DNA of 64,000 bases from Gammaproteobacteria bacterium (GTDB lineage Bacteria; Pseudomonadota; Gammaproteobacteria; Ga0077536), in contig JBFXAQ010000014.1 in the NCBI GenBank assembly GCA_050184115.1, forward strand, positions 30,925-94,924, in the 5' to 3' direction. The position numbers were made by a program, and so were the translations under genes. The notes beneath the pieces were generated by a model. The model worked only from the letters and a program-made list of their open reading frames with translations, did no database searches and was not told where the DNA came from. Below are positions 1 through 10,716 of this stretch, in pieces; position 1 is the stretch's first letter, and each line of letters opens with the position of its first letter.

Positions 1-1
1 T

Positions 2-667
2 AGGGTGCAAGAGTCGGCCGCGGAGCGCGAACGCGTGGCATTCATGTCGGTCGTACTGGCCGACACCGAGGACACCTGGGCGGCGCTGTTCCAGGCCACC
101 GGCCAGCGTTACGCCGAGCCGCAGCTGGTGCTGTTCCGCGATGCCACGCCCTCCGCCTGCGGGCTCGGCCAGAGCGCGATGGGACCGTTCTACTGCCCGG
201 CCGATCGCAAGGTCTATCTCGACCTCGCGTTCTTCGACGAACTCGCGCGCCGTTTCGGTGCCCCCGGCGATTTCGCGCAGGCCTACGTGCTCGCCCACGA
301 GGTCGGACATCACGTGCAGACCCTGCTCGGCATCAGCGCGCGCAATCACGCCGCCCGCGAACGCGCGAGCGCGGCCGAGGCCAACCGTCTCAGCGTGCGC
401 CAGGAACTGCAGGCCGACTGCTACGCCGGGGTATGGGCTCATCATGCCCAGCGCGCGCGTGACATCCTCGAACGCGGCGATGTCGAGGAAGCGCTCGGCG
501 CCGCCACGGCCATCGGCGACGATCGCCTGCAGCGTCAGGCGCAGGGGCGTGTGACGCCGGATTCCTTCACCCACGGTACGTCCGAGCAGCGCGTGCGCTG
601 GTTCCGTACGGGGCTCGAACACGGCTCGCTCGAACGTTGCGACACCTTCGCCGCGGCGCAGCTCTGA
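2..667 (+). CDS. Putative neutral zinc metallopeptidase (YpfJ/Zn_peptidase_2 family); 5' end lies outside the window
   Basis: ORF 5..667 translation contains HEVGHH (HExxH) and a conserved C-terminal YpfJ-like region. The ~220 aa lacks the usual N-terminal TM part, so it is probably truncated by the window edge. Confidence 0.6.
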
Positions 668-677
668 ATCCATCACG

Positions 678-1249
678 GTGGGGCCGATCGAAGACCTCCC
701 GGCCGAGGGCATCGACACGCCGCACGGCCGTCTCTGCAAGCCCCTCGGCGACGGCTGGCAGAGCGGGGTGCTGCTGCTGGAATTCGCTGGCGGGCCGCTG
801 TGCGGCAACCTCGTCGGGCGCATTCCCGGTGACCTCAGCGAGCGCGCGCACCTTCCTCTACGTACCGCTCGTGCTGGTGTTCTTCGCCGGCTACACGCTG
901 TGGGTCGCGCGCCTCAATGCCATTGCCTTCGACGGCCTCGGCCGTGCCGGGCTGAAGACGCTGTTCCTGCTCATCGTGCGGCGCCTTCGGGCCGACACGC
1001 GTCGAAGAGGTCTTGCCGAGCGAGGGCAAGCTGCTCGAACTGGCTGTGCGGGCCCAGCGCGCCGGTGTCGCGTTCCGCCCGGCGAGTTATCCCCTCGCGG
1101 TCCTGGCCGGTTTCGCAGCGCTCGTCATCGAAACGCGGGTGAGCGCGGGGGGCATGTTCCTGCTCGTCGCTGGCAGTTGCGTGGCCTGGGGCGCGACCCT
1201 CGGCTGGCTCGGACGCCGCGGCTGGCTGCCGTTCACGGAAGAAGGCTGA
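678..1249 (+). pseudogene. Possible frameshifted small membrane-protein gene (protein-like translation jumps frame 0 -> +1 -> +2)
   Basis: Three successive overlapping ORFs (678.., 637.., 1013..1249) each give hydrophobic TM-like stretches (YVPLVLVFFAGYTLWVA, LAVLAGFAALVIE, MFLLVAGSCVAWGATLGWLG) only over adjacent sub-regions. No single long frame is present. Confidence 0.2.
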
Positions 1250-1373
1250 TGACGACGCCCGGGCGCGCTGGCCGCGGGTCCGCCAACGGGCTAAGGTCAC
1301 GAGCGGGGTGCGCCTGCGTGACTGCGCGGCGCGGGTCTGCGGCGAGCGCGCCGGATCGCGCGCACTCCAGTCA

Positions 1374-1772
1374 ATGGTCAACGTGCGAGGGGAGACAGAC
1401 GTGAACTGGTATATCGAAGTCCTGAAGAAGTACGCGGTGTTCAGTGGTCGGGCCAGGCGCAAGGAATACTGGTTCTTCGTCCTGTTCAACATCATCGTGA
1501 GCGTGGTGCTGTCGGTCATCGACGGCGTGACGGGAACGCTCGATACCGAAGGTGGCGTCGGTCTCCTCAGCGGCCTCTACACGCTCGCGGTCATCGTGCC
1601 CAGCATCGCTGTCGGCATCCGTCGCCTGCATGACATCGGCCGCTCCGGCTGGTGGTTGTTGATCGTCCTGGTGCCCTTGATTGGCGCCCTGGTCCTGCTC
1701 TTCTTCGCCGTGCAGGACAGCCAGCCCGGCAGCAACGAGTATGGGCCGAATCCCAAGGAGGTCGCGGACTGA
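1374..1772 (+). CDS. DUF805 family inner-membrane protein (YhaH-like)
   Basis: WYIEVLKKYAVFSGRARRKEYWFF...GIRRLHDIGRSGWW motifs are typical of DUF805. Alternative start is GTG at 1401, preceded by GAGGGGAG RBS. Confidence 0.75.
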   Translation: MVNVRGETDVNWYIEVLKKYAVFSGRARRKEYWFFVLFNIIVSVVLSVIDGVTGTLDTEGGVGLLSGLYTLAVIVPSIAVGIRRLHDIGRSGWWLLIVLVPLIGALVLLFFAVQDSQPGSNEYGPNPKEVAD

Positions 1773-1794
1773 CGGCCGTGCCGCTGCGGCGCGA

Positions 1795-2919
1795 CTAGGG
1801 ACGCGTCGCGCCCAGAGACCGTTCGGCCGGGGTGGCGAGATCGCGATCCCAGGCCGTGAGCCGGGGCGCGATGTGACGGAACCACAGTGGCGGCACGAGC
1901 ACCAGCGGCAAGGTGGCGAGATAACCGAGTGGCAACCTCGGCGCACTGTCGCTGGCGTGGAGTTCGGGGTAGTGCACACCAGCCCGGCTGTGATGGTCCG
2001 CGTGCCAGGGCAGGTTGAACAGCGCGGCATGGCTGAAGGCGCTGATCGAGTCCCAGGCGTGGCGGGGTTCGATCGGGGTACCCGCTACGCGGACCAGGCC
2101 GTAGTGCTCCATGTAATTGAGTGCTTCGAGCAGCAGCTTGTTCCAGGCCGAGGCGAGCAGGAACCAGCCGAGCGCACCGATGCCGCCAGCCCACAGGAAG
2201 CCGCCGGCCACCGCCAGGGCGCGCAGGAAGCCGCGCAGCACGCGGTTGTCGACGACGCGCGCGACGGGTTTGCGGCTGGCGAGGCGGGCACGCTCGATGC
2301 GCCAGGCCTGGGCAACCTGGCCGAGGCTCGAACGCAGGTAGAAGCGGTAGACGTTCTCACCACGCCGCGCGGTGGCCGGGTCGGCCGGCGTGCCGACCTC
2401 GCGGTGATGGCCCTGCACGTGCGCCACCTCCAGACTGCTGTTGAAGGCCAGCGCCAGCAGCCAGCGGCCGACCGCGAGGGCCAGCGGATCACGCGTGCGG
2501 TGGACCAGTTCGTGGGCCGTCAGGATGCCGGCCATGGCGATGGCGAGCGCGAACGACCAGGTGCCGCCGAGCCGATCGAGGGCATTGCTGGCATCGCGCG
2601 CCCCCAGGCAATCGTAGCCGCTCGCAACTTGGCAGGTGGCGCCGAAGCCGAGCAGGTCGGCATCGGCCAGCGACCAGGCGTAGACCAGGGTCAGCAGGGT
2701 GACCGTCGGCAGGAGGCTGTAGAGCGCGAGGTCGAGCAACGCACGATGGGCGTAACGCGGCGGCCGCGGCGCAACCGCGCTACTGAGGACGTCGCCGCCG
2801 ATCCAGACCACGACGCCTGCAACCAGCCCGCTCCATGCCCAGGAACCGCCCATGAGCAGGCCGAGCATGGTCGCCGCGACCAGCAGATGGGTGCCGAAGT
2901 AGCGCAGGTAGGCGCGCAT
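1795..2919 (-). CDS. alkB: Alkane 1-monooxygenase / AlkB-type membrane fatty-acid-desaturase-family hydroxylase
   Basis: All four His boxes are present: HELVHR, EVAHVQGHH, NYMEHYGL, LPWHADHH. Multiple TM segments. Start trimmed to MRAYLRY (ATG revcomp at 2917-2919) from the long ORF 1795..3624. Confidence 0.8.
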   Translation of the reverse strand: MRAYLRYFGTHLLVAATMLGLLMGGSWAWSGLVAGVVVWIGGDVLSSAVAPRPPRYAHRALLDLALYSLLPTVTLLTLVYAWSLADADLLGFGATCQVASGYDCLGARDASNALDRLGGTWSFALAIAMAGILTAHELVHRTRDPLALAVGRWLLALAFNSSLEVAHVQGHHREVGTPADPATARRGENVYRFYLRSSLGQVAQAWRIERARLASRKPVARVVDNRVLRGFLRALAVAGGFLWAGGIGALGWFLLASAWNKLLLEALNYMEHYGLVRVAGTPIEPRHAWDSISAFSHAALFNLPWHADHHSRAGVHYPELHASDSAPRLPLGYLATLPLVLVPPLWFRHIAPRLTAWDRDLATPAERSLGATRP

Positions 2920-2930
2920 CGTCGCGCCGT

Positions 2931-3269
2931 TCAGGACGCGGTCCCGCCGGCGGCGGGCAGGTTGAGCAGGACCACGCCGGCGACGACGCAGGCGATACCG
3001 GCGATCTTGTAGCGGTGGACGCGTTCGCCGAGCAGGGCGATGCCGAGCAGGGCGGCTCCCGCCGTGCCGCCGCCGGCCCAGACCGGGTAGACGCTGCTGA
3101 CCGGCAGCACGAGCAGCGCGCGACTGATCAGCCAGAAGGCGAGCGCAAAGGTCACGAGCGCACCGATGGCCGGCAGCGGGCGGGTGAAACCGTCGCTCCG
3201 GCGCAGCAGCAACGCCGCCGTGACCTCGGCCGCAATGGCGCCGCCGACGAGCAGCCAGGCGCCGGTCAT
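2931..3269 (-). CDS. SMR-family small multidrug/guanidinium exporter subunit (EmrE/SugE-like), partner 2
   Basis: 112 aa with 4 TM helices and conserved SMR motifs (PVSSVYPVWAGGGTAGAALLG). Lies immediately downstream of a second SMR gene. Confidence 0.8.
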   Translation of the reverse strand: MTGAWLLVGGAIAAEVTAALLLRRSDGFTRPLPAIGALVTFALAFWLISRALLVLPVSSVYPVWAGGGTAGAALLGIALLGERVHRYKIAGIACVVAGVVLLNLPAAGGTAS

Positions 3270-3290
3270 GGCGAACGGGTTCCGCGTGTT

Positions 3291-3668
3291 TCAGCAACCA
3301 CAGGCTTTCTCGGCGACGCGATTGATGAGCACCACGCCGGCGAGTACGAGGGCGACGCCCGCGCCTTTGACCAGCGTCAGCGGTTCGCCGAGCCAGGCGA
3401 CGCCGAGCACGGCCACGCCGACCGTGCCGCCACCCGCCCACACCGGGTAGGCGATGCTCACCGGCAGCGCACGCATGACGCGGGCCACGATCACCAGCGC
3501 GGCGCCGAAGGCGGCCAGCGCGAAGAGTGTCGGCAGCGTGCGCGTGAAGCCGGCGCTGAAGCGCAGTCCCAGCGCGCCGGCGGTCTCGCCGGCGACGGCG
3601 AGACCGAGCAGGGCCCAAGCCCAAGCGGGGCCCTGGGCGGGCCGCCGGTCCAGTGTGATCGATTCCAT
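3291..3668 (-). CDS. SMR-family small multidrug/guanidinium exporter subunit (EmrE/SugE-like), partner 1
   Basis: Translation MESITLDRR...PVSIAYPVWAGGGTVGVAVLG is the SMR signature. Start ATG (revcomp CAT 3666-3668) trimmed from ORF 3291..3761. The adjacent pair suggests a heterodimeric SMR. Confidence 0.8.
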   Translation of the reverse strand: MESITLDRRPAQGPAWAWALLGLAVAGETAGALGLRFSAGFTRTLPTLFALAAFGAALVIVARVMRALPVSIAYPVWAGGGTVGVAVLGVAWLGEPLTLVKGAGVALVLAGVVLINRVAEKACGC

Positions 3669-3683
3669 GGAGCCGCGCTTACA

Positions 3684-3701
3684 TTTTCGATAATTCGAAA
3701 A
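3684..3701. promoter_or_regulatory. AT-rich perfect palindrome TTTTCGA-TAAT-TCGAAAA in the SMR leader; candidate operator
   Basis: Perfect 7-bp inverted repeat inside a ~50-bp low-GC island (acattttcgataattcgaaaatattaacag) in an otherwise ~70% GC region. Located 16 bp upstream of the SMR start. Confidence 0.45.
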
Positions 3702-3849
3702 TATTAACAGACGAAACGGGGAAATCCAGGCTGGTACGTATTTCGCCCGCGCAGCGGTCACCGGACGCCGGGCGGGCCGGCCGGGCGGCCGGTCGAGGGG
3801 GCGCCGCGCGGAATGGCAATCGCCGGGACCGGCGCGCGGGACTCGTGGG

Positions 3850-4212
3850 TCAGCGCTTGCCCTTGCGCAGCATCCGTAGATCGCCTTCCAACGCCTCGTG
3901 CAGGTCGTGGTTGTCGAGCTCGTAGTAGACCTGCTTGCCGTCGTTGGTGGTGCTCAACCAGCCACGGTCCTTGAGTTGCTTGAGCTGCTGTGAGGTGGCG
4001 GCGAAGCTGAGCCCGAGGAGGCTGGCGATGTCGCCGACGCACAGGGGGCCGACGCGGCCGAGCGCGAGCAGGATCTTGATGCGCACCGGATTGGCGATGA
4101 GCTTGTAGAGCTCCGCCATGCGCGGCAGAACCTCGGCGTCCTGCTCCAGCTTGCGCGCGGCGCGCGCTACTGCGCGTTCGTCGCGCACGACGATGTTGGG
4201 CGTGGAGGGCAT
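3850..4212 (-). CDS. ArsR/SmtB-family HTH transcriptional regulator
   Basis: C-terminal 120 aa of ORF 3850..5793: ELYKLIANPVRIKILLAL...VGDIASLLGLSFAATSQQLKQLKDRGWL, a typical ArsR wHTH. Start at MPSTPN (CAT 4210-4212). Confidence 0.75.
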   Translation of the reverse strand: MPSTPNIVVRDERAVARAARKLEQDAEVLPRMAELYKLIANPVRIKILLALGRVGPLCVGDIASLLGLSFAATSQQLKQLKDRGWLSTTNDGKQVYYELDNHDLHEALEGDLRMLRKGKR

Positions 4213-4437
4213 GCGGCCACCAGTGTTCTGCAGGTGGCATATTCTCGAACTTTTCTTCGCCCCGCGCACGGTGTGCGCGGGGCAGTGCGATGTCGTGGCC
4301 GTCGCCCTGGATGTGGCCGTGCGCAATGAGCGTGGTGATCGCCGTCGACCCCGCCGACGTATCGACATACATGCGTTTGCCGCCTGCTCCACGCGGCGGC
4401 GATAATCGCTCCGCCCCGATACCGAGCCCGTGCCGAC

Positions 4438-5394
4438 GTGACCACCGGAGACCTCCACCGCTTTTCCTTCGACGGCCTGCCGGTTCGCGGCGCGCTGGTG
4501 CGCCTGACGTCGAGCTGGCAGGAGGCCTTGCGTCGCCGCGCCACGGTGGGCGCGTTTCCACCCGCCGTGCGCCACCTGCTCGGCGAGATGTCGGCTGCCG
4601 GTGCGCTGATGCAATCGGCGATCAAGTTCGACGGCGCCCTGGTGCTGCAACTCAAGGGCGACGGCCCGTTGCGCATGGCGGTGGCGGAAGTGAGCTCGGC
4701 GCTCAGCTTCCGCGCCACCGCGCAGGTCGTCGCCACCATCGAGGGCGCGCCCGAACTCGGCGCCATGGTCAACGTCGACGGCGGCGGTCGCTGCGCCATC
4801 ACCCTCGATCCGCGCGACCGGCCGGCCGGCAAGCTGCCCTACCAGGGTATCGTGCCGCTGGAGGACGCCAGCGGCGCGTCGCTGCGCCGATTGTCCGATG
4901 CGCTCGAGTTCTACATGCTGCAGTCCGAACAGCTCGCCACCCGTTTCGTGCTTGCCGCCAACGACGAGATTGCCGCCGGGCTCATGCTGCAACACATGCC
5001 GCCGGGCGCCGACGCCGAGCGCCACGAGCGACCCGATCCGCACCGACCGCACGCCGAGTTCGAGCGCCTTGCCACGCTCGGCGCGAGTCTCACCGCCGAG
5101 GAGCTGCTCGGACTGCCGCCGGCCGACATCCTGCGCCGGCTGTTCTGGGCCGAACAGCTGCGCCAGTACGAACCGCGCGACGTCGCCTTCGCCTGCTCGT
5201 GCAGCCGCGCGCGCGTCCAGGGCATGCTGGTCGGGCTCGGGCGGGCGGAGGTCGAGGACATCATCGCCGAACGCGGCGAGGTCGAGGTCGGTTGCGACTT
5301 CTGCGGCGAGCATTACCGTTTCGATGCCGTCGATGTCGGCGGACTGTTCACGCCCGCGCGCGATCAGCCGGGTTCCACCGATACGATGCAATAG
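4438..5394 (+). CDS. hslO: Hsp33 redox-regulated chaperone
   Basis: C-terminal zinc centre CSCSR...CDFCGEHY (CxC...CxxC) and overall Hsp33-like sequence. Confidence 0.85.
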   Translation: MTTGDLHRFSFDGLPVRGALVRLTSSWQEALRRRATVGAFPPAVRHLLGEMSAAGALMQSAIKFDGALVLQLKGDGPLRMAVAEVSSALSFRATAQVVATIEGAPELGAMVNVDGGGRCAITLDPRDRPAGKLPYQGIVPLEDASGASLRRLSDALEFYMLQSEQLATRFVLAANDEIAAGLMLQHMPPGADAERHERPDPHRPHAEFERLATLGASLTAEELLGLPPADILRRLFWAEQLRQYEPRDVAFACSCSRARVQGMLVGLGRAEVEDIIAERGEVEVGCDFCGEHYRFDAVDVGGLFTPARDQPGSTDTMQ

Positions 5395-5397
5395 ACC

Positions 5398-5838
5398 ATG
5401 ACGACGATCTTCCTCGCGCTGGCCGCCGCGCGCGTGGCGTGGCGGGCCGGGCGCGGCCTCCTGCTCGCATTCGCCGCCGTCCTGCTGGCCGTACCCGCCG
5501 GCGCCGCCATCACTCCCGATTTTTCCGCTTACGTCACGGTCGCCAGCGAAGCGCTGGCGCCGGGCAAGGTCGCCGGCACGGTGCGCAACATCAGCGGCGG
5601 GCCGCTGCGCGGCGTCGTGCTGCGGGTGCGCCACGAATGGCGCTGGTCGGGGCTCGACGGCGCCAAGGGCGGCAGCCTGGTCGAGACCCGCCGGGTGACG
5701 CTCGGCGAGCTGGTGCTGCCGGGCGATTTCGCCGGCTTTGCCTCCATCCACGAACCCGGCGCGCGGGTGCCGGCGCATGCGCGCTACACCCACGATGTGA
5801 CGGTCCTCGAACTGACCACCGTCGGCCTCGCGCCGTGA
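5398..5838 (+). CDS. Hypothetical secreted protein
   Basis: ORF directly after hslO stop. N-terminal hydrophobic signal-like segment. No recognisable family. Confidence 0.4.
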   Translation: MTTIFLALAAARVAWRAGRGLLLAFAAVLLAVPAGAAITPDFSAYVTVASEALAPGKVAGTVRNISGGPLRGVVLRVRHEWRWSGLDGAKGGSLVETRRVTLGELVLPGDFAGFASIHEPGARVPAHARYTHDVTVLELTTVGLAP

Positions 5839-5851
5839 CCGTCGCGCGCGT

Positions 5852-7219
5852 ATGAAGCTGTCGCTGCGCGAACTGACCGCGTTCGGCCTGCTCAGCGTGC
5901 CCCTGTCGACTGGCGGCCTGCCGCTGGTGCTCTATCTCACGCCCTTCTATGCCCGCGAACTCGGTGTCGGTCTCGCCTCGATCGGCCTGGTGCTGACCCT
6001 GGTGCGGATCACCGACGTCGTCACCGATCCCCTCATCGGCGCCTTGTCCGACCGCACGCCGGCGCGCTTCGGTCGCCGCAGCCTGTGGATCGCGCTCGGC
6101 CTGCCGGTGATGGCGGCGGCGACCTGGGCGGTGTTCGTGCCTCCGGCGTCACCGGGGCCACTCTACCTGTTCGTCGCGGTCGCCCTGCTCTACTTCGGCT
6201 GGACCCTGATCGGCATCCCGCTGTCGGCCTGGGTAGCCGAAATCTCGGAGGACTATCACGAGCGTTCGCGCATCAGCGGCGCGCGCATCTGGGGCGGACT
6301 GCTCGGCTCGGTCCTCGCCATCGTCGCGCCGCTGGTCGTCGTTAGCCTCGCCGCGGCCGGACTGGAGAGGTTCGCCGCCGACGGTCCGGACAGTCTCGCA
6401 CCAACCCTGCGCCTGCTGGCCTGCGTGACCATCGCCCTGCTGGTGATCGCGGTGCCGTGGTTGCTCGTCACGGTGCGCCAGCCGGATTTCGCACGACCCG
6501 GCCAGGCTGACCTGCGCGGCGGTTTCAGGCTCGTGCTCGGCAACCGCGCCTTCATGCGACTGCTCGCCTCCGGCATGTGTGCCGCGATCGGTTGGAACTC
6601 CATCAACACCCTGTTCGTGTTCTTCGCCACGCAATACCTCGGCGCGGCGCAGAACGAGTGGCCGATCATCGTACTGGTCTACCTCGTTGCGCAGCTCATC
6701 GGTACGCCGGTCATCGTGCGGCTCGCGCCGCGCTTCGAGAAGCACCGCATGCTGGCGGTGCTGTCGCTGACACAGATCGCGATCTTTTCGCTCGTGCTGG
6801 TGATGCCACCTGGGCACTGGCAGCTCTACACCCTGCTCAACGTCTTTACCGGCCTGCTCGCGCCGGTGGTGCCAATCCTGGCCCCGTCGATGGCAGCCGA
6901 CGTCATCGACGAGGACATGCTGGTCTCGGGCCAGCAACGCGGCGCCTTGTTCATGGCGCTGTGGGGCATGGCCGACAAGCTCGCCGTCGGCATCGCCGCG
7001 GGTATCGCGCTGCCGCTGGTGGCGGCGCTCGGTTTCGACCCCGCCGGCACGAACGACCCGGCGGGGCTGCGCGCGCTGCACCTGTCGTTCTGCCTCGTGC
7101 CGGAACTCTTCTTCGTCGCCTCGGTGGCCTTCATCTGGAACTACCCGCTGACGCGTGCACGGCACGCCGAAGTGCGTGCGGCGCTGCTCGCGCGGCGGCT
7201 GGCGCAACCGGCGAACTGA
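5852..7219 (+). CDS. MFS transporter, glycoside-pentoside-hexuronide (GPH/MelB-like) family
   Basis: 455 aa with 12 predicted TM. N-terminal GPH-like motif LVLYLTPFYARELGVGLASIGLVLTLVRITDVVTDPLIGALSDRT. Confidence 0.75.
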   Translation: MKLSLRELTAFGLLSVPLSTGGLPLVLYLTPFYARELGVGLASIGLVLTLVRITDVVTDPLIGALSDRTPARFGRRSLWIALGLPVMAAATWAVFVPPASPGPLYLFVAVALLYFGWTLIGIPLSAWVAEISEDYHERSRISGARIWGGLLGSVLAIVAPLVVVSLAAAGLERFAADGPDSLAPTLRLLACVTIALLVIAVPWLLVTVRQPDFARPGQADLRGGFRLVLGNRAFMRLLASGMCAAIGWNSINTLFVFFATQYLGAAQNEWPIIVLVYLVAQLIGTPVIVRLAPRFEKHRMLAVLSLTQIAIFSLVLVMPPGHWQLYTLLNVFTGLLAPVVPILAPSMAADVIDEDMLVSGQQRGALFMALWGMADKLAVGIAAGIALPLVAALGFDPAGTNDPAGLRALHLSFCLVPELFFVASVAFIWNYPLTRARHAEVRAALLARRLAQPAN

Positions 7220-7314
7220 GCGACCGGCGCCGTGCGCCAGGGCACGGCGGCAAGTACACTGTCGCCCTGCGCCGCGCTGCCGTTGCGCGGCACCACGACA
7301 TATCGAACGAGACC

Positions 7315-8208
7315 ATGAGCGCAGCCACGCCCGGACCGACCTCGCACAGCTATTTTTCGCAGCGCCTGCGCCTGCACTACGTGGACTGGGGCAATCCCGA
7401 CGCACCACCACTGCTTCTGCTCCACGGCGGGCGCGATCACTGCCGTAACTGGGACTGGGTGGCCGAGGCATTGCGCGACGACTGGCACATCATCGCGCCG
7501 GACCTGCGCGGGCATGGCGACAGCGAGTGGTCGGCCGACGGCCACTACCCGATGGAGTGCTACATCTACGATCTCGCCCAGCTCATCCACCAGCAACAGC
7601 TTGCGCCTGTGACGATCGTCGCCCATTCGCTCGGCGGCAACATCGCGCTGCGCTACACCGGCTGCTATCCCGACACCGTACGCCGCCTCGTCGCCATCGA
7701 GGGTCTCGGCTTCTCGCCGGCCAAGCTCGCCGAGCGCGACGCGATCGGACTCGACGAGCGCCTGCGCGACTGGATCGACGACAAGCGCCAGCTCGCCGGC
7801 CGCCTGCCGCGGCGTTACGCCTCGATCGAGGAGGCCTACCAGCGCATGCAGGAAGAGAACAAGCATCTCTCGCCAGCCCGCGCGCGGCACCTCACCATCC
7901 ACGGCGTCAACCAGAACGAGGACGGCACGTATTCGTGGAAGTTCGACAACTACGTGCGCTCGTGGCCGGCCTATGACATGCCGCAGGCGGACGTCGAGCG
8001 CCTGTGGCGCAACATCACCTGCCCGACCCTGCTGCTCTACGGCAACGAGAGCTTCGCGTCCAATCCGGCGGAGGACGGCCGCGCGCGGCATTTCACGAAC
8101 GCGCGCATCGAGACCATCGAAAACGCCGGGCACTGGCTGCACCACGACCAGTTCGAGCGCTTCATGGAACTGGTGCAGGACTTCATCGCCGCCGGTGACG
8201 CGCGCTGA
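7315..8208 (+). CDS. Alpha/beta-fold hydrolase
   Basis: HGGRDHCRNW...AHSLGG (GxSxG nucleophile elbow) with a C-terminal His. Trimmed to MSAATPG from ORF 6577..8208. Confidence 0.8.
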   Translation: MSAATPGPTSHSYFSQRLRLHYVDWGNPDAPPLLLLHGGRDHCRNWDWVAEALRDDWHIIAPDLRGHGDSEWSADGHYPMECYIYDLAQLIHQQQLAPVTIVAHSLGGNIALRYTGCYPDTVRRLVAIEGLGFSPAKLAERDAIGLDERLRDWIDDKRQLAGRLPRRYASIEEAYQRMQEENKHLSPARARHLTIHGVNQNEDGTYSWKFDNYVRSWPAYDMPQADVERLWRNITCPTLLLYGNESFASNPAEDGRARHFTNARIETIENAGHWLHHDQFERFMELVQDFIAAGDAR

Positions 8209-8242
8209 ACGACTGCGGCGCGGGCGAGTGGGGTGGGCGAGT

Positions 8243-8275
8243 GGGGTCAGACCCCGAAGCTCAAGGGTTTGTTTC
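8243..8275 (+). terminator. Candidate intrinsic terminator after the hydrolase gene
   Basis: GGGGT-CAG-ACCCC hairpin followed by T-rich gggtttgtttcag. An inverted copy of the same hairpin (ggggtctgacccc) lies at ~8301-8313. Confidence 0.3.
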
Positions 8276-8381
8276 AGCGAGACTATCTGTTGACGACGGG
8301 GTCTGACCCCGACAGGTAAGTGGTTGATTGAGGTTTGTCGGGGCGGGAGCGCCCGGGCAGCCGGACGGACGGAGGACGAAG

Positions 8382-9566
8382 GTGCGAGCACTCGAGGAAT
8401 TCCGCGCGCAGACGCGCGCCTGGCTGGAAGAGAACTGCCCGCCGTCGATGCGCACGCCGCTGCCTGACGAGGAGCGCGTGTGGGGCGGGCGCAACGCGAC
8501 GTTCAGGCACCCCGACAGCAAGCTGTGGCTGGAGCGCGTCGCCGCGCGTGGCTGGACCGTGCCGACCTGGCCGGTCGAGTACGGCGGCGCGGGTCTCGAC
8601 GCCGAGCAAGCCCAGGTACTGCGCGAGGAGATGGCCCGGCTCAAGTGCCGCCAGCCGCTCGCGTCCTTCGGTATCTGGATGCTCGGCCCGGTGCTGCTCA
8701 AGTACGGCACCGAGGCGCAGAAGCGCGAGCACCTGCCCAAGATCGCCCGCGGCGAGATCCGCTGGTGCCAGGGTTACTCCGAACCCGGCGCCGGCTCCGA
8801 CCTCGCGTCACTCAAGACGCGCTGCGAGGACCAGGGCAACCACTACCTGGTCAACGGTCAGAAGATCTGGACCTCCTACGCCAACTACGCCGACTGGATC
8901 TTCTGCCTCGTGCGCACCGATACCAGCACCAAGCACAACGGCATCTCCTTCATCCTCTTCGACATGGCGAGCGAGGGCGTGGAGACGCGCCCGATCACCC
9001 TCATCAGCGGTGCCTCGGTGTTCTGCGAGACCTTTTTCACCGACGTCCGCGTGCCCAAGGACAACCTCGTCGGCGGCCTCAACCAGGGCTGGACCATCGC
9101 CAAGGAACTGCTCCAGCACGAGCGCGGCATGATCGCCGAGATCGGTCGCACCATCGGCGGCACGGTGCCGCCGGTCGACGTCGTCGCGCAGCACTACCTG
9201 GCCGACGCCGACGGCCACATCGGCGAGCCTGCGCTGCGCGATGCCGTCGCCCGCCACGTCATGAAGGACCGCGCCTTCGGCCTCACCATTCGCCGCGCCG
9301 CGCAGGAGAGCGAAGCCGGCACGGCCTCGGGTGGCCTGTCGTCGATGTTCAAGTACTACGGTACCGAGCAGAACAAGGCCAAGTTCGAACTCATCATGAA
9401 ATGCGCCGGCCACAACGCACTCGGCTGGGAGGGCGGAGGCTTCAGTGCGCAGGAACTGGAGATCTGCCGCACCTGGCTGCGCTCGAAAGGCAACTCGATC
9501 GAGGGCGGGACCTCGGAGGTGCAGTTGAACGTCATTGCCAAGCGCGTGCTCGGCCTGCCGGATTGA
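8382..9566 (+). CDS. Acyl-CoA dehydrogenase family protein
   Basis: ACAD N/M/C domain-like sequence (WTVPTWPVEYGGAGLD...RWCQGYSEPGAGSDLASL...). GTG start preceded by GGAGGA RBS. Confidence 0.8.
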   Translation: MRALEEFRAQTRAWLEENCPPSMRTPLPDEERVWGGRNATFRHPDSKLWLERVAARGWTVPTWPVEYGGAGLDAEQAQVLREEMARLKCRQPLASFGIWMLGPVLLKYGTEAQKREHLPKIARGEIRWCQGYSEPGAGSDLASLKTRCEDQGNHYLVNGQKIWTSYANYADWIFCLVRTDTSTKHNGISFILFDMASEGVETRPITLISGASVFCETFFTDVRVPKDNLVGGLNQGWTIAKELLQHERGMIAEIGRTIGGTVPPVDVVAQHYLADADGHIGEPALRDAVARHVMKDRAFGLTIRRAAQESEAGTASGGLSSMFKYYGTEQNKAKFELIMKCAGHNALGWEGGGFSAQELEICRTWLRSKGNSIEGGTSEVQLNVIAKRVLGLPD

Positions 9567-9576
9567 GGGAGAAGCG

Positions 9577-10716
9577 ATGAACCTGGTATTGAACGACGAA
9601 GAGGCCATCCTCAAGCGCGGGGCGCACGAGTATTTCGGCGAGCGTCTACCGGTGGCCGCCCTGCGCCGCCTGCGCGACGAGCGCGTTGTCGACGGCTTCG
9701 ACCGTGCGGCCTGGGCCGAGATGGCCGACATGGGCTGGGCCGGCGTGCTGCTGCCGGAGGCCTACGGTGGCGCCGGTTTCGGTTACCGCGGCATGGGCCA
9801 GATCCTGGAAGAGGCCGGGCGCACGCTGGCCGCCTCGCCGCTGGTCGCCACCGCCCTGAGCGCCGCGCCGCTGGTGCTCAGCGCCGGCAGCGAGGCCCAG
9901 CGCGAGGCCATCTTGCCCGCGGTCGCGGCCGGCGAGTGCCTGCTCGCGCTCGCTGTCGACGAGGGCGCGCGCCATGCGCCGAACCGGATCGCGACCACCT
10001 GTACGGCGGTCGAGGGCGGCCTGCGTCTCGACGGCACCAAGGTGTTCGTGCTCGATGGCCACGTCGCCGATCACTTCGTCGTCGTCGCACGCAGCCATGG
10101 CGCGGTCGATGCCGAGGACGGCATCAGCCTGCTGCTGGTGCCGGCCGACACCGCCGGCATCCGGGTCACCCGCACCGCCATGGTCGATGCGCGCAATGCC
10201 GCGCAGGTCGTGTTCGATGGCGTGACGGTCGACACCGGCGCCGTGCTCGGTACGCTCGGCGACGGCTACGCCGCCCTCGAACGTGCGCTCGATGGCGCGC
10301 GCGCGGGCCTCGCCGCGGAGATGCTCGGCAGCGGACTCGAAGCCTTCGAGCGCACCATCGCCTATCTCAAGTTGCGCGAGCAGTTCGGGCAGAAGATTGG
10401 CGCCTTCCAGGCCCTCAAGCACCGCACCGCGCTGATGTACTGCGAGATCGAATTGACCCGTTCGGCGGTACTGGCCGCGCTCGATGCTCTCGATGCCGGT
10501 AGCGCCGAAGCCCCGGCCCTGGCCAGCCTGGCCAAGGCCCAGGCCTGCGAGATGCTCGAACTGGTCACGAACGAGGCGGTGCAGATGCACGGCGGCATCG
10601 GCATGACCGACGCCGAAGAGATCGGTTTCTTCCTCAAGCGCGCGCGGGTCGCCCAGCAGACTTTCGGTGACGCGGCCTGCCATCGCGATCGCTACGCGCG
10701 CCTGGCGGGTTTCTGA
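9577..10716 (+). CDS. Acyl-CoA dehydrogenase family protein (second, adjacent; possible partner subunit)
   Basis: MNLVLNDEE... with ACAD C-terminal region (QMHGGIGMTDAEEIGFF). Start 10 nt after the stop of the upstream ACAD, with GAGGGAGAAG RBS. Confidence 0.75.
   Translation: MNLVLNDEEAILKRGAHEYFGERLPVAALRRLRDERVVDGFDRAAWAEMADMGWAGVLLPEAYGGAGFGYRGMGQILEEAGRTLAASPLVATALSAAPLVLSAGSEAQREAILPAVAAGECLLALAVDEGARHAPNRIATTCTAVEGGLRLDGTKVFVLDGHVADHFVVVARSHGAVDAEDGISLLLVPADTAGIRVTRTAMVDARNAAQVVFDGVTVDTGAVLGTLGDGYAALERALDGARAGLAAEMLGSGLEAFERTIAYLKLREQFGQKIGAFQALKHRTALMYCEIELTRSAVLAALDALDAGSAEAPALASLAKAQACEMLELVTNEAVQMHGGIGMTDAEEIGFFLKRARVAQQTFGDAACHRDRYARLAGF

What the first reader, a model, noticed from the sequence alone, without database searches (positions are those of the whole stretch)
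1795..4212. ArsR regulator - heterodimeric SMR pair - AlkB hydroxylase on one strand with an AT-rich palindromic operator
Four co-directional minus-strand genes sit with tiny gaps: ArsR-family repressor, SMR subunit 1, SMR subunit 2 (a paired SMR such as Gdx/EbrAB-type), then an AlkB-type alkane 1-monooxygenase starting 9 nt after the SMR stop. Coupling a membrane hydroxylase to a paired SMR exporter under an ArsR regulator is unusual. It suggests a substrate-export or detoxification unit, for example cationic or hydrophobic compounds. The leader of the first SMR has a perfect AT-rich palindrome TTTTCGATAATTCGAAAA (3684-3701) inside a ~50-bp low-GC island, a likely operator/promoter. I looked for guanidine-I/II/III riboswitch signatures in this leader and did not find them.
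Basis: partly seen in the sequence, partly recalled or inferred. Interest (0 to 1): 0.55.

Follow-up and report, generated by a model that had tools for sequence, protein, structure and literature searches.

The report
Repressor-controlled cysteine-tailed SMR pump plus AlkB-like hydroxylase
The four genes are a real cassette, conserved in uncultured Gammaproteobacteria: a repressor with a conserved operator, a two-subunit mini-pump of an undescribed type that ends in an invariant cysteine, and a membrane hydroxylase, and gene neighbourhoods elsewhere suggest, without proving, that it detoxifies arsenic- or metal-bearing organic compounds.

Summary
On the minus strand lie an ArsR-family gene (4212-3850), two SMR genes (3668-3291, 3269-2931) and an AlkB-fold diiron hydroxylase (2919-1795). 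The last two gaps are 21 and 11 nt.

The AT-rich "palindrome" is an 8-4-8 inverted repeat inside a 24-bp box. The box overlaps the -10 of a conserved promoter and recurs directly after arsR in 57 of 62 related loci. No riboswitch was found.

17 of 24 loci of this AlkB-like clade have the SMR pair adjacent, with different flanking genes. None of 65 more distant relatives does.

The SMR pair is neither Gdx nor any named subtype. It is an obligate antiparallel heterodimer, and the inward-facing subunit ends in -GC-COOH in 100 of 106 homologues.

Elsewhere the ArsR-SMR-SMR core has a four-cysteine CadC-like regulator. It sits beside Zn/Cd/Pb-type P-type ATPases, MerT/MerP, thiol-disulfide oxidoreductases or ars genes, and often a corrinoid/pterin protein. 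AlkB-linked regulators have lost most of these cysteines.

In one metagenome contig the hydroxylase and SMR pair sit inside a complete ars operon.

Best reading: a repressor-gated detoxification unit for a thiol-reactive, lipophilic alkylated compound. An organo-arsenical or organometal substrate is inferred, not shown.

The parts
3850..4212 (-). ArsR/SmtB-family repressor gene (120 aa). It belongs to the CadC lineage but has one cysteine only (PLCVGD) and no alpha5 metal site.
3723..3728 (-). -35-like hexamer TGGATT of the SMR promoter. It is conserved as TGGAcA in relatives, 16 nt upstream of the -10.
   Evidence: inferred from conservation; the consensus scan did not flag it
3701..3709 (-). 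Extended -10, TGtTAATAT. Relatives have TGnTA(T/A)CAT at the same place.
3681..3704 (.). 24-bp operator box ATATTTTCGAATTATCGAAAATGT (family consensus TCATTTCGATATTATCGAAAATGA). It overlaps the -10 and the predicted transcription start.
3291..3668 (-). SMR1, the inward-facing subunit (N-in/C-in by K+R bias). The Glu14 equivalent is E28.
3294..3311 (-). Codons for the SMR1 C-terminal motif E-K-A-C-G-C. The terminal -GC-COOH is the family hallmark.
2931..3269 (-). SMR2, the outward-facing subunit (N-out/C-out). The Glu14 equivalent is E15, and there is no terminal cysteine.
1795..2919 (-). AlkB-fold membrane diiron hydroxylase (374 aa) with the His motifs HELVHR, AHVQGHH, NYMEHYG and HADHH. It starts 11 nt after the SMR2 stop codon.

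Best explanation
Regulation. The ArsR-family protein has its own upstream region. I infer that it represses a second promoter (TGGATT-16-TGtTAATAT) by binding a 24-bp imperfect inverted repeat that overlaps the -10 and the transcription start. That promoter drives SMR1-SMR2-AlkB-like as one unit.

Transporter. SMR1 faces in and SMR2 faces out. Together they form an antiparallel, proton-coupled heterodimeric exporter of a distinct SMR subtype. Both subunits keep the central Glu, Tyr and Trp. The inward-facing subunit carries an invariant cytoplasmic C-terminal thiol (-GC-COOH).

Enzyme. The third gene encodes a six-helix, nine-histidine diiron alkyl hydroxylase of the AlkB/XylM superfamily. Its reductase partner is encoded elsewhere.

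Proposed function. The unit detoxifies a membrane-partitioning, thiol-reactive alkylated compound. The most likely class is an organo-arsenical or another alkylated soft metal(loid). The hydroxylase would oxidise the alkyl group, or the metalloid centre, within the membrane. The cysteine-tailed SMR pair would capture and expel the compound or its product.

Shown from sequence and comparison: gene identities, the AlkB fold, subunit topology bias, the cysteine hallmark, the conserved promoter and box, and the conserved linkage.

Inferred: repression by this ArsR, co-transcription, export direction, and above all the substrate class.

My confidence by layer: about 0.85 for the regulated SMR1-SMR2-hydroxylase module, about 0.55 for a soft-metal(loid) link, and about 0.25 for organo-arsenicals specifically.
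For: Linkage:
- ArsR-SMR1-SMR2-AlkB-like occurs in the same order, with unrelated flanking genes, in the window, L003-L010, L085, L090, L093, L111, L124, L140 and the P0034 locus.
- It is divergently arranged in L013/L084.
- It is ordered AlkB-like-SMR1-SMR2 with an ATGA stop/start overlap in L169.
- SMR2 and the AlkB-like gene overlap by 8 nt in the P0034 locus.
- In total 17 of 24 clade loci have the SMR pair adjacent. None of the 65 relatives at 31-39% identity does.

Regulation:
- The box scores 17-24 of 24 directly after arsR in 57 of 62 distinct loci. Random 165-nt pieces have a median of 12 and a 99th percentile of 17.
- The box begins inside a conserved TGnTAnCAT -10, with TGGAcA 16 nt upstream.
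- No promoter-like or terminator-like site lies between SMR1, SMR2 and the hydroxylase gene.

Transporter:
- K+R bias points inward in 97 of 97 SMR1 sequences and outward in 60 of 60 SMR2 sequences. Glu, Tyr and Trp are invariant.
- 100 of 106 SMR1 homologues end in Cys.

Hydroxylase:
- The AF2 model has pLDDT 93.5 and TM-score 0.82 to AlkB-AlkG 8F6T.
- All His motifs are invariant in the clade.

Metal(loid) link:
- All 48 regulators outside AlkB contexts carry CxxPCF plus LCVCD. Their best PDB matches are CadC proteins, with the N-terminal Cys motif aligned.
- Neighbours include a P-type ATPase that passes the heavy-metal model and has ZntA-type models as its best specific matches, MerT/MerP/MerR, TlpA/DsbD/thioredoxin proteins and a CDF transporter.
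- L169 reads arsR-arsC/D-arsA-acr3-AlkB-like-SMR1-SMR2, with arsH and an arsM-like gene alongside.
- L083 reads arsRC-acr3-arsD ... arsM-MFS-AlkB-like.
- acr3, arsC or arsM-like genes lie next to SMR-only loci L141, L115, L126, L172 and L123.
Against: - The window's own ArsR has a single cysteine and no alpha5 site, so it cannot bind metals the way CadC or the known As(III) sensors do.
- tblastn with my arsenic, mercury and P-type ATPase probes finds nothing in the 64-kb window.
- Only 2 of 24 clade loci lie in ars islands. The arsM-MFS pair in L083 may be a unit of its own.
- Some clade members and near relatives sit in classical alkane/alcohol oxidation contexts. L175 has a PQQ-cytochrome c alcohol dehydrogenase and an ALDH. 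Polaromonas pPNAP01 has an alk-like operon.
- No rubredoxin or XylA-like reductase is encoded in the window.
- About 90% of SMR1-family loci lack the hydroxylase, and 7 of 24 hydroxylase loci lack the SMR pair.
- Many metagenome loci come from one set of samples (Ga03162xx).
- Everything is comparative. No expression or activity data exist.
Confidence: 0.5

Rival explanations
1. This is hydrocarbon or alkyl-chain oxidation with an accessory efflux pump, and no metal(loid) is involved. The AlkB-like enzyme hydroxylates alkanes or the alkyl tails of lipophilic cations such as long-chain quaternary ammonium compounds. The SMR pair exports the toxic substrate or an alcohol or aldehyde intermediate. 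The cysteine-depleted ArsR has been re-purposed to sense an organic ligand.
For: - The closest cultured relative (40% identity, Polaromonas CJ2 pPNAP01) is a fusion protein in an alk-like operon with a GMC oxidoreductase, an acyl-CoA ligase, an ALDH and OmpW.
- Clade member P0040 sits beside a PQQ-cytochrome c alcohol dehydrogenase and an ALDH.
- BVMO-like and luciferase-like monooxygenases flank the cassette in L084/L013, L090 and L111.
- Acyl-CoA dehydrogenase genes lie nearby in the window.
- The AlkB-linked ArsR proteins have lost the metal-binding cysteines.
- SMR pumps classically export lipophilic cations (review PMC9574504).
Against: - The terminal cysteine of SMR1 is kept in every AlkB-linked locus, even where the preceding residues drift, as in L007 and L008. 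That is hard to explain for a plain cation or solvent pump.
- The same SMR family is otherwise always found in metal or thiol-redox contexts under CadC-like control.
- In L169 the hydroxylase and SMR pair are placed inside an ars operon.
- No alcohol or aldehyde dehydrogenase travels with the cassette.
Confidence: 0.28
2. There is no functional link. A mobile ArsR-SMR-SMR metal-resistance module landed next to a resident alkB-like gene in one ancestor, and the adjacency persists by descent.
For: - The ArsR-SMR-SMR core is mobile. It sits in Tn3-family contexts on V. campbellii pIFL1_1 and on P. putida pWW0 and pGRT1.
- It usually lacks the hydroxylase: 7 of 80 metagenome loci have it.
- 7 of 24 clade loci lack the SMR pair.
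- The co-directional cassettes form one clade in a neighbour-joining tree.
Against: - Flanking genes differ from genome to genome while the cassette stays intact.
- Three different arrangements keep the genes adjacent: co-directional, divergent, and hydroxylase first within an ars operon.
- Stop and start codons overlap in two lineages.
- SMR linkage appears in both branches of the tree.
- Regulator type tracks hydroxylase presence without exception among loci with enough flanking sequence.
Confidence: 0.12
3. This is a guanidinium (Gdx), polyamine (MdtIJ) or generic Qac/EbrAB-type exporter, as the first reader suggested testing.
For: - The best NCBIfam matches are EbrA and EbrB (62.7 and 79 bits), followed by SugE and the Qac models.
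- The paired antiparallel topology is like EbrAB and MdtIJ.
Against: - No named model's cutoff is reached: EbrA/B 160, SugE 126, EmrE 162, MdtI 103, MdtJ 122.
- The residue three positions after the central Glu is an invariant Gly (SMR1) or Ala (SMR2). From my knowledge of Gdx proteins, that position is Trp.
- No guanidine riboswitch is present.
- The family is a tight, separate cluster. 106 hits lie mostly at 50% identity or more, and the one unrelated SMR below that is at 37%. It has its own hallmark motif.
Confidence: 0.07

Closest known systems
CadC / SmtB-type ArsR-family repressors (S. aureus pI258 CadC, PDB 1u2w; Listeria Lmo1102, 9t6r; Synechococcus SmtB, 1r1t)
   Same: - It has the same winged-helix fold family.
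- The recognition helix (ATSQQLK / ATSHQLK) is conserved across the whole set.
- It has an inverted-repeat operator overlapping a promoter.
- Relatives outside AlkB contexts carry the CadC N-terminal C-x-I-x-C-F-(D/E)-x-x-K-V motif plus LCVCD.
   Different: - The window's protein keeps only the first alpha3 cysteine (PLCVGD) and has no alpha5 D-x-H-x10-H-x2-E site.
- Its best PDB match is SmtB (53.6 bits), not CadC (35.5 bits).
- Its own upstream region has no box, so autoregulation appears lost.
- Its effector is unknown.
Paired SMR transporters (EbrAB, MdtIJ, YkkCD) and EmrE
   Same: - Each subunit has four helices and is about 110-125 aa.
- The two adjacent genes have opposite K+R bias (+3.1 and -4.4), as the SMR review describes for heterodimers (PMC9574504).
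- The central Glu, the Tyr switch and the binding-site Trp are invariant.
   Different: - The family does not reach any named subtype's cutoff.
- The inward-facing subunit ends in an invariant -GC-COOH and often has further N-terminal cysteines.
- It is controlled by a CadC-lineage repressor rather than a riboswitch or a TetR/MerR-type regulator.
- It is embedded in metal, thiol-redox, corrinoid or hydroxylase operons.
- The review names four functional subtypes and none resembles this one.
AlkB alkane 1-monooxygenase (Fontimonas AlkB-AlkG, PDB 8F6T/8SBB) and XylM
   Same: - It has the same fold over the full length (TM-score 0.82).
- All the His motifs are present.
- It aligns over its full length with XylM at 28% identity.
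   Different: - Sequence similarity to canonical AlkB (about 35%) covers only the C-terminal 60% or so.
- The motif is AHVQGHH instead of EHNRGHH.
- No rubredoxin is present in the window or the loci.
- Relatives at 31-39% identity pair with XylA-like Fer2-FAD reductases, and some relatives at about 42-45% identity are ferredoxin fusions.
- It is linked to an SMR pump and an ArsR regulator instead of alcohol and aldehyde dehydrogenases.
Organoarsenical resistance genes of ars operons (ArsP and ArsK efflux permeases; ArsH, ArsV and ArsI oxidising or cleaving enzymes). I name these from my own knowledge and literature titles.
   Same: - The logic is the same: a permease paired with an oxidising enzyme under an ArsR-family repressor.
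- In L169 the hydroxylase and SMR pair sit between acr3 and arsH in a complete ars operon. In L083 the hydroxylase follows arsM-MFS.
   Different: - It has no sequence relationship to any of those proteins.
- The neighbouring flavin monooxygenases score far below the ArsO model's cutoff (51-70 bits against 425).
- The window itself has no ars genes.
- No activity on arsenicals has been tested.

Membership tests
ArsR/SmtB transcription factors | Winged-helix HTH_5 domain scoring above the curated cutoff | tested here: met
   NF033788 scores 72.7 bits against a cutoff of 55, and PF01022 scores 42.7 against 22
CadC-type (alpha3N) metal sensors | Four thiolate ligands: an N-terminal CxxxC pair plus CVC in helix alpha3 | tested here: not met
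   The window protein has one Cys (PLCVGD). All 18 AlkB-linked homologues have 1-2 Cys. All 48 homologues in other contexts have the full set.
alpha5 (SmtB/CzrA-type) metal sensors | D-x-H-x10-H-x2-(E/H) in helix alpha5 (motif taken from my knowledge of SmtB and CzrA) | tested here: not met
   The window has LDNHDLHEALEGDLRMLR, with Arg at both distal ligand positions. The proximal D and H are not conserved in orthologues.
SMR family (PF00893) | Four-helix subunit with the central membrane Glu, the Tyr switch and the binding-site Trp | tested here: met
   PF00893 scores 66.5 and 76.9 bits against a cutoff of 23.7. E28/E15, Y74/Y61 and W77/W64 are invariant in 97 and 60 sequences.
Paired (heterodimeric) SMR | Adjacent genes with opposite Arg/Lys bias | tested here: met
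   SMR1 averages 5.29 against 2.15 (N/C-terminal side richer in 97 of 97). SMR2 averages 0.40 against 4.77 (opposite in 60 of 60). The gene gap is 21 nt.
Gdx (SugE) guanidinium exporters | Curated SugE model cutoff; Trp three residues after the central Glu; frequent guanidine riboswitch control | tested here: not met
   59.8 and 56.5 bits against a cutoff of 126. Gly or Ala is invariant at that position. There is no Rfam match in the leader.
Qac/EmrE, EbrAB, MdtIJ and ArnEF subtypes | Curated NCBIfam cutoffs for each subtype | tested here: not met
   - EbrA/EbrB score 62.7 and 79 against 160.
- EmrE family scores 54.9 and 66.4 against 162.
- MdtI scores 40.3 and 43.1 against 103; MdtJ scores 34.9 and 34.5 against 122.
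- ArnF scores 29.3 against 99.
AlkB/XylM membrane diiron hydroxylases | The histidine motifs that bind the diiron centre (HExxH, HxxGHH, NYxEHYG, HxDHH) | tested here: met
   H136, H140, H167, H171, H172, H272, H306, H309 and H310 are invariant in 28 clade members and aligned with AlkB 8f6t
AlkB/XylM membrane diiron hydroxylases | AlkB fold over the full length | tested here: met
   The AF2 model has pLDDT 93.5 and pTM 0.91. Foldseek against 8F6T gives E=3.8e-16 and TM-score 0.82; against 8SBB the TM-score is 0.75.
Canonical alkane 1-monooxygenase system (AlkB-AlkG-AlkT) | Rubredoxin partner and alcohol/aldehyde dehydrogenase genes in the neighbourhood | tested here: not met
   tblastn with a rubredoxin probe and a XylA-like reductase probe finds nothing in the 64-kb window. 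No dehydrogenase travels with the cassette. The rest of the genome could not be searched.
Canonical alkane 1-monooxygenase system (AlkB-AlkG-AlkT) | Terminal hydroxylation of n-alkanes | not testable with these tools
   This needs an enzyme assay
ars (arsenic resistance) operon genes | Location within an operon with arsR, arsC, acr3/arsB, arsA/D, arsH or arsM | tested here: inconclusive
   It is met in L169 (ArsA 910 bits, Acr3 393, ArsH 376, ArsD 130) and partly in L083 (ArsM 365 bits against 263). It is not met in the window or in the other cassette loci.

The most novel reading that the evidence does not exclude
The cysteine-tailed SMR pair is a fifth functional SMR subtype, dedicated to thiol-reactive methylated or alkylated soft metal(loid)s. 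Candidates are methyl-arsenicals, arsenic-containing hydrocarbons, methylmercury and alkyl-lead or alkyl-tin cations.

It works with an enzyme that attacks the carbon-metal(loid) side chain. In anaerobes that enzyme would be a Cys-rich corrinoid/pterin (MtrA-like) methyl-transfer protein. In aerobic Gammaproteobacteria it would be this AlkB-like diiron hydroxylase, which occupies the same operon position.

The window's cassette would then be a new class of organometal(loid) resistance or dealkylation genes, and new ars genes in L169.
Probability: 0.18. Interest if true: 0.9.

Novelty: new variant of a known kind. Interest (0 to 1): 0.66.

Why it matters
- **A possible fifth SMR subtype.** SMR transporters are a textbook minimal transporter family with four recognised functional subtypes. 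A tight, widespread subtype with an invariant cytoplasmic terminal cysteine and CadC-type control has apparently not been described. It is carried even on the well-studied plasmids pWW0 and pGRT1. It would add a fifth subtype and a thiol-assisted mechanism.
- **A new substrate for AlkB-family enzymes.** These enzymes are known for hydrocarbon oxidation. A branch wired to a metal-type regulator and pump, and in one case built into an ars operon, suggests membrane diiron hydroxylases may act on organo-arsenicals or other alkylated metal(loid)s. The enzymology of aerobic dealkylation of such compounds is largely unknown.
- **A ready-made test system.** The conserved 24-bp operator and the natural series of regulators from four cysteines to one allow direct study of how a metal sensor is re-tuned.

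Tried and rejected
- **Riboswitch or structured leader.** An Rfam E-value scan of 1-8000 gave nothing relevant. Arms of the box look like a covarying hairpin in L004, L009 and L010. The window and L007 do not keep that register, and the element overlaps a promoter, so I treat it as a DNA operator.
- **Consensus promoter/terminator scan**. It found nothing between the genes. It also missed the SMR promoter, whose -35 matches only 3 of 6. Conservation rescued that promoter.
- **Searching the window with the family consensus box** at up to 3 mismatches, and with TTTCG-N7-CGAAA. Both missed the window's own site, because its left arm is shifted by one base (N6 spacing). No second site turned up in the window.
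- **Electron-transfer partners.** Rubredoxin and XylA-like reductase probes gave no hit in the window.
- **Flavin monooxygenase neighbours as ArsO-type arsenic enzymes.** Scores are 51-70 bits against a cutoff of 425, so I rejected this. They look like ordinary BVMO-type enzymes.
- **The 220-aa methyltransferase near the cassette in L001 as ArsM.** It scores 44 bits against 263, so I rejected this.
- **"unk285" of L169 as a new conserved arsenic gene.** It is probably the antisense reading of an ECF-sigma/CMD gene pair.
- **Hsp33 and DUF805 flanks as part of the unit.** They are kept only in the closest relatives.
- **Literature.** Searches for AlkB+SMR+ArsR, SMR+mer operon, SMR+ars operon and MtrA/DUF4346+metals found no description of this cassette or SMR subtype. 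The library is incomplete, so this is not proof of absence.
- **Record look-up.** CP092684.1 failed without the NZ_ prefix and was recovered through.

Full report
**1. What is in the window**

- ArsR-family gene, 4212-3850, 120 aa. NCBIfam NF033788 scores 72.7 bits against a cutoff of 55.
- SMR1, 3668-3291, 125 aa.
- SMR2, 3269-2931, 112 aa. Both SMR genes match PF00893 well above its cutoff.
- A 374-aa PF00487 protein, 2919-1795.

The gaps are 181, 21 and 11 nt. The flanks are Hsp33 (divergent) and a DUF805 gene (convergent). The window is identical to a 172-kb contig of an uncultured gammaproteobacterial MAG.

The last protein is an AlkB-superfamily enzyme.
- It matches the two solved AlkB structures at 1e-36 and 1e-30, with all His motifs aligned.
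- Those histidines are invariant in 28 clade members.
- An AlphaFold model (pLDDT 93.5) superposes on AlkB-AlkG 8F6T with TM-score 0.82 over the full length.
- It is not a canonical AlkB. Sequence similarity to canonical AlkB covers only the C-terminal 60% or so. XylM aligns over the full length at 28%.
- No rubredoxin or XylA-like reductase gene is in the window.

**2. The palindrome is a conserved operator on a conserved promoter**

It lies in a 100-nt stretch of 47% GC within a roughly 70% GC region.

Intergenic regions of relatives show a 24-bp box. The consensus is TCATTTCGATATTATCGAAAATGA, and the window has ATATTTTCGAATTATCGAAAATGT at 3704-3681.
- In 57 of 62 distinct loci the best match directly after arsR scores 17-24 of 24.
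- Random 165-nt pieces of the same loci have a median of 12 and a 99th percentile of 17.

In the hydroxylase-linked loci the box begins inside a conserved extended -10 (TGnTAnCAT), with TGGAcA 16 nt upstream. In the window these elements are TGGATT at 3728-3723 and TGtTAATAT at 3709-3701.

A repressor on the box would therefore occlude the -10 and the transcription start. No Rfam family matches the leader.

The four genes are thus two units. One is arsR with its own upstream region, which has no box except in L124. The other is a repressible SMR1-SMR2-hydroxylase unit, with no promoter-like or terminator-like site inside it. Binding by this ArsR and co-transcription are inferences.

**3. The linkage is conserved**

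A genome-collection scan with the clade alignment, followed by tblastn, shows ArsR-SMR1-SMR2-hydroxylase in the same order in L003-L010, at 60-83% hydroxylase identity. L013 has a divergent arrangement.

Look-ups and a metagenome scan add L085, L090, L093, L111, L124, L140 and the P0034 locus. Each has different flanking genes.
- In the P0034 locus SMR2 overlaps the hydroxylase gene by 8 nt.
- In L169 the order is hydroxylase-SMR1-SMR2, with an ATGA stop/start overlap.
- Altogether 17 of 24 clade loci have the SMR pair adjacent.
- None of the 65 loci of relatives at 31-39% identity does. Those mostly sit beside XylA-like Fer2-FAD reductases.
- A neighbour-joining tree places SMR-linked members in both branches of the clade.

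**4. The SMR pair is a distinct subtype**

Neither subunit reaches the cutoff of any named SMR model.

Homologue searches return small, tight families. SMR1 has 106 hits, mostly at 50% identity or more, and the one unrelated SMR below that is at 37%.

K+R counts give SMR1 an inward bias in 97 of 97 sequences and SMR2 an outward bias in 60 of 60. That makes an obligate antiparallel heterodimer. The Glu14, Tyr60 and Trp63 equivalents are invariant. The position three residues after the Glu is Gly or Ala, where Gdx proteins have Trp.

The hallmark is the SMR1 C-terminus.
- 100 of 106 hits end in ...(S/A)EKxxGC-COOH.
- The six exceptions are SMR2 cross-hits, a frameshifted product, one unrelated EmrE-like protein, and one with CGC four residues from the end.
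- By the positive-inside rule this thiol is cytoplasmic.
- Many members also have N-terminal cysteines.
- The terminal GC is kept in every hydroxylase-linked locus, even where the preceding residues have drifted, as in L007 and L008.

The current SMR review lists four functional subtypes (guanidinium, drug/antiseptic, polyamine, lipid) and nothing like this one (PMC9574504).

The pair also occurs on P. putida pWW0 and pGRT1 and on V. campbellii pIFL1_1, next to Tn3-family transposases.

**5. What the SMR core keeps company with**

ArsR-SMR1-SMR2 is the core unit. ArsR is adjacent in 55 of 69 dereplicated loci. An unbiased clustering of neighbours within 5.5 kb gave the following.

| Neighbour | Loci (of 69) |
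|---|---|
| 390-aa Cys-rich MtrA (corrinoid) + pterin-binding protein, directly after SMR2 | 23 |
| DsbD/CcdA-like | 18 |
| Thioredoxin-like | 17 |
| hyp149 (149-aa protein with no family match) | 14 |
| MacB-type ABC transporter | 10-13 |
| AlkB-like hydroxylase | 12 |
| TlpA-like (AhpC/TSA fold) | 11 |
| MerT-like | 8 |
| CDF transporter | 6 |
| P-type ATPase | 6 |
| TPMT-like methyltransferase | 5 |

- The P-type ATPase of L086 passes the heavy-metal model, and ZntA-type models are its best specific matches.
- MerT/MerP/MerR neighbours occur in L088, L126 and L128.
- The hydroxylase and the MtrA-like protein occupy the same position after SMR2 and never co-occur.

The regulators split cleanly.
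- All 48 outside hydroxylase contexts carry N-terminal CxxPCF plus LCVCD. Their best PDB matches are CadC proteins, with the N-terminal motif aligned.
- All 18 in hydroxylase contexts have (L/M)CV(G/S)D and only one or two cysteines.
- The two apparent exceptions are contigs that end just after SMR2.
- The window's protein best matches SmtB but lacks the alpha5 ligands.
- Four-cysteine loci also have a second box about 35-41 nt upstream of arsR. Hydroxylase loci do not.

**6. Arsenic**

Two loci place the hydroxylase in arsenic islands.
- L169 reads arsR (C-terminal CC...C cluster)-arsC/arsD-arsA (910 bits)-acr3 (393 bits)-hydroxylase-SMR1-SMR2. arsH (376 bits) is convergent, and an arsM-like gene lies downstream.
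- L083 reads arsR-arsC-acr3-arsD, then arsM (365 bits against a cutoff of 263)-MFS-hydroxylase.
- acr3, arsC or arsM-like genes also flank SMR-only loci L141, L115, L126, L172 and L123.

Several results point the other way.
- The window has no hit to my arsenic or metal probes.
- P0040 sits beside a PQQ-cytochrome c alcohol dehydrogenase and an ALDH.
- The closest cultured relative (Polaromonas pPNAP01, 40%) is a fusion protein in an alk-like operon.
- BVMO-like neighbours are not ArsO-type.

The enzyme is best described as an alkyl C-H hydroxylase whose substrate in the SMR context is unknown.

**7. Most likely mechanism and rivals**

I commit to a repressor-gated detoxification unit.
- The ArsR-family protein holds the SMR promoter shut.
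- On induction the cell makes an antiparallel SMR exporter and a membrane diiron hydroxylase.
- The inward subunit of the exporter offers a cytoplasmic thiol.
- The target is a lipophilic, thiol-reactive alkylated compound.

The comparative pattern favours an organo-arsenical or another alkylated soft metal(loid). My confidence is about 0.55 for the metal(loid) link and about 0.25 for arsenicals specifically. The loss of thiolate ligands in the regulator means its inducer differs from that of CadC-like relatives, and it is unknown.

Rivals:
- Plain hydrocarbon or lipophilic-cation oxidation with an accessory pump (0.28).
- Adjacency by descent without a functional link (0.12).
- A Gdx, polyamine or generic Qac pump (0.07).

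All steps beyond sequence, fold, topology bias, conservation and context are inferred. No expression or activity data exist, and no cultured host carries the four-gene cassette.

**8. Novelty and verdict**

Each part belongs to a known kind: ArsR repressor, paired SMR, AlkB-superfamily hydroxylase. The new elements are the SMR subtype, its operator, the regulator series and the coupling to a hydroxylase, or to a corrinoid/pterin protein in other lineages. I found none of these described in the searchable literature.

I rate it a new variant of a known kind, with interest 0.66.

Noticed in passing
L126 6701-7885; L172 6669-7847; L117 6633-7805 (23 of 69 dereplicated SMR1 loci): A 390-aa protein lies directly downstream of SMR2 on the same strand. 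It has a Cys-rich N-terminus (KKCWRCGC...CLGCEVCWP...HC), an MtrA corrinoid-binding domain (PF04208, 1e-40) and a pterin-binding DUF4346 domain (PF14251, 2e-24). It scores 523 bits on NF002128 against a cutoff of 568. It occupies the operon position that the AlkB-like gene holds in the window, never co-occurs with it, and is always under a four-cysteine CadC-like ArsR.
   Followed up: partly
L091/L095 2774-8254; L086 2137-6336 and about 12 further loci: A second conserved architecture exists: CadC-like ArsR, then up to three conserved proteins with no family match (319, 185 and 149 aa), a MacB-type permease, an ABC ATPase, SMR1, SMR2 and a TlpA/ResA-like thiol-disulfide oxidoreductase. It is often followed by a second ArsR-like gene and a heavy-metal P-type ATPase. 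It sits on a Tn3-family element in V. campbellii pIFL1_1.
   Followed up: partly
L173 (P. putida TOL plasmid pWW0, NC_003350.1 83333-84170); also pGRT1 of DOT-T1E: The cysteine-tailed SMR pair (SMR1 ends SEKRSGC, and its N-terminus has two Cys) sits next to a Tn3-family transposase without an ArsR gene. It is near ISPpu12, which carries cadR, merR, a merB-like gene and a cation transporter. Model-organism plasmids therefore carry this uncharacterised pump.
   Followed up: partly
window 4259-4283: A perfect GC-rich inverted repeat lies 47 nt upstream of the arsR start codon, between arsR and the divergent Hsp33 gene. Its arms are 11 nt with a 3-nt loop: GCCCCGCGCAC-GGT-GTGCGCGGGGC. It has no T-run on either strand and is not conserved in the closest relative, L003.
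   Followed up: partly
L018-L073 (relatives of the hydroxylase at 31-39% identity, e.g. L021 5036-5974, L031 4936-5925): A broad set of AlkB-like genes shares the LEVAHV motif. They occur in Fluviicoccus, Alcanivoracaceae, Solimonas, Methylophaga-like MAGs and Thiobacillus, and mostly sit next to a XylA-like Fer2-FAD-NAD reductase rather than a rubredoxin. Several homologues at about 42-45% identity are ferredoxin fusions.
   Followed up: partly
L083 3793-4634; L169 about 7490-8400; L115 816-1598: An ECF sigma factor and CMD/AhpD-like gene pair recurs beside arsM or acr3 in three arsenic-linked loci. The plus-strand ORF first taken for a conserved unknown protein (L169 7545-8402) is probably its antisense reading.
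   Followed up: no
L151 6001-7798: The whole SMR1-SMR2 pair is tandemly duplicated upstream of a heavy-metal P-type ATPase gene.
   Followed up: no
L084 8527-11308; L090 4094-5725; L111 3226-4812: BVMO-type flavin monooxygenases (about 545 aa, 42% identical between lineages) recur within 3 kb of the four-gene cassette in three lineages. In L084 a luciferase-like monooxygenase is there as well. They score far below the ArsO model's cutoff.
   Followed up: partly
window 5-667, 5852-7219, 8328-10716: The nearby window genes are a zinc-metallopeptidase-like ORF (my reading of the HExxH sequence), a GPH-family symporter and two acyl-CoA dehydrogenases. None is related to metals or arsenic.
   Followed up: partly
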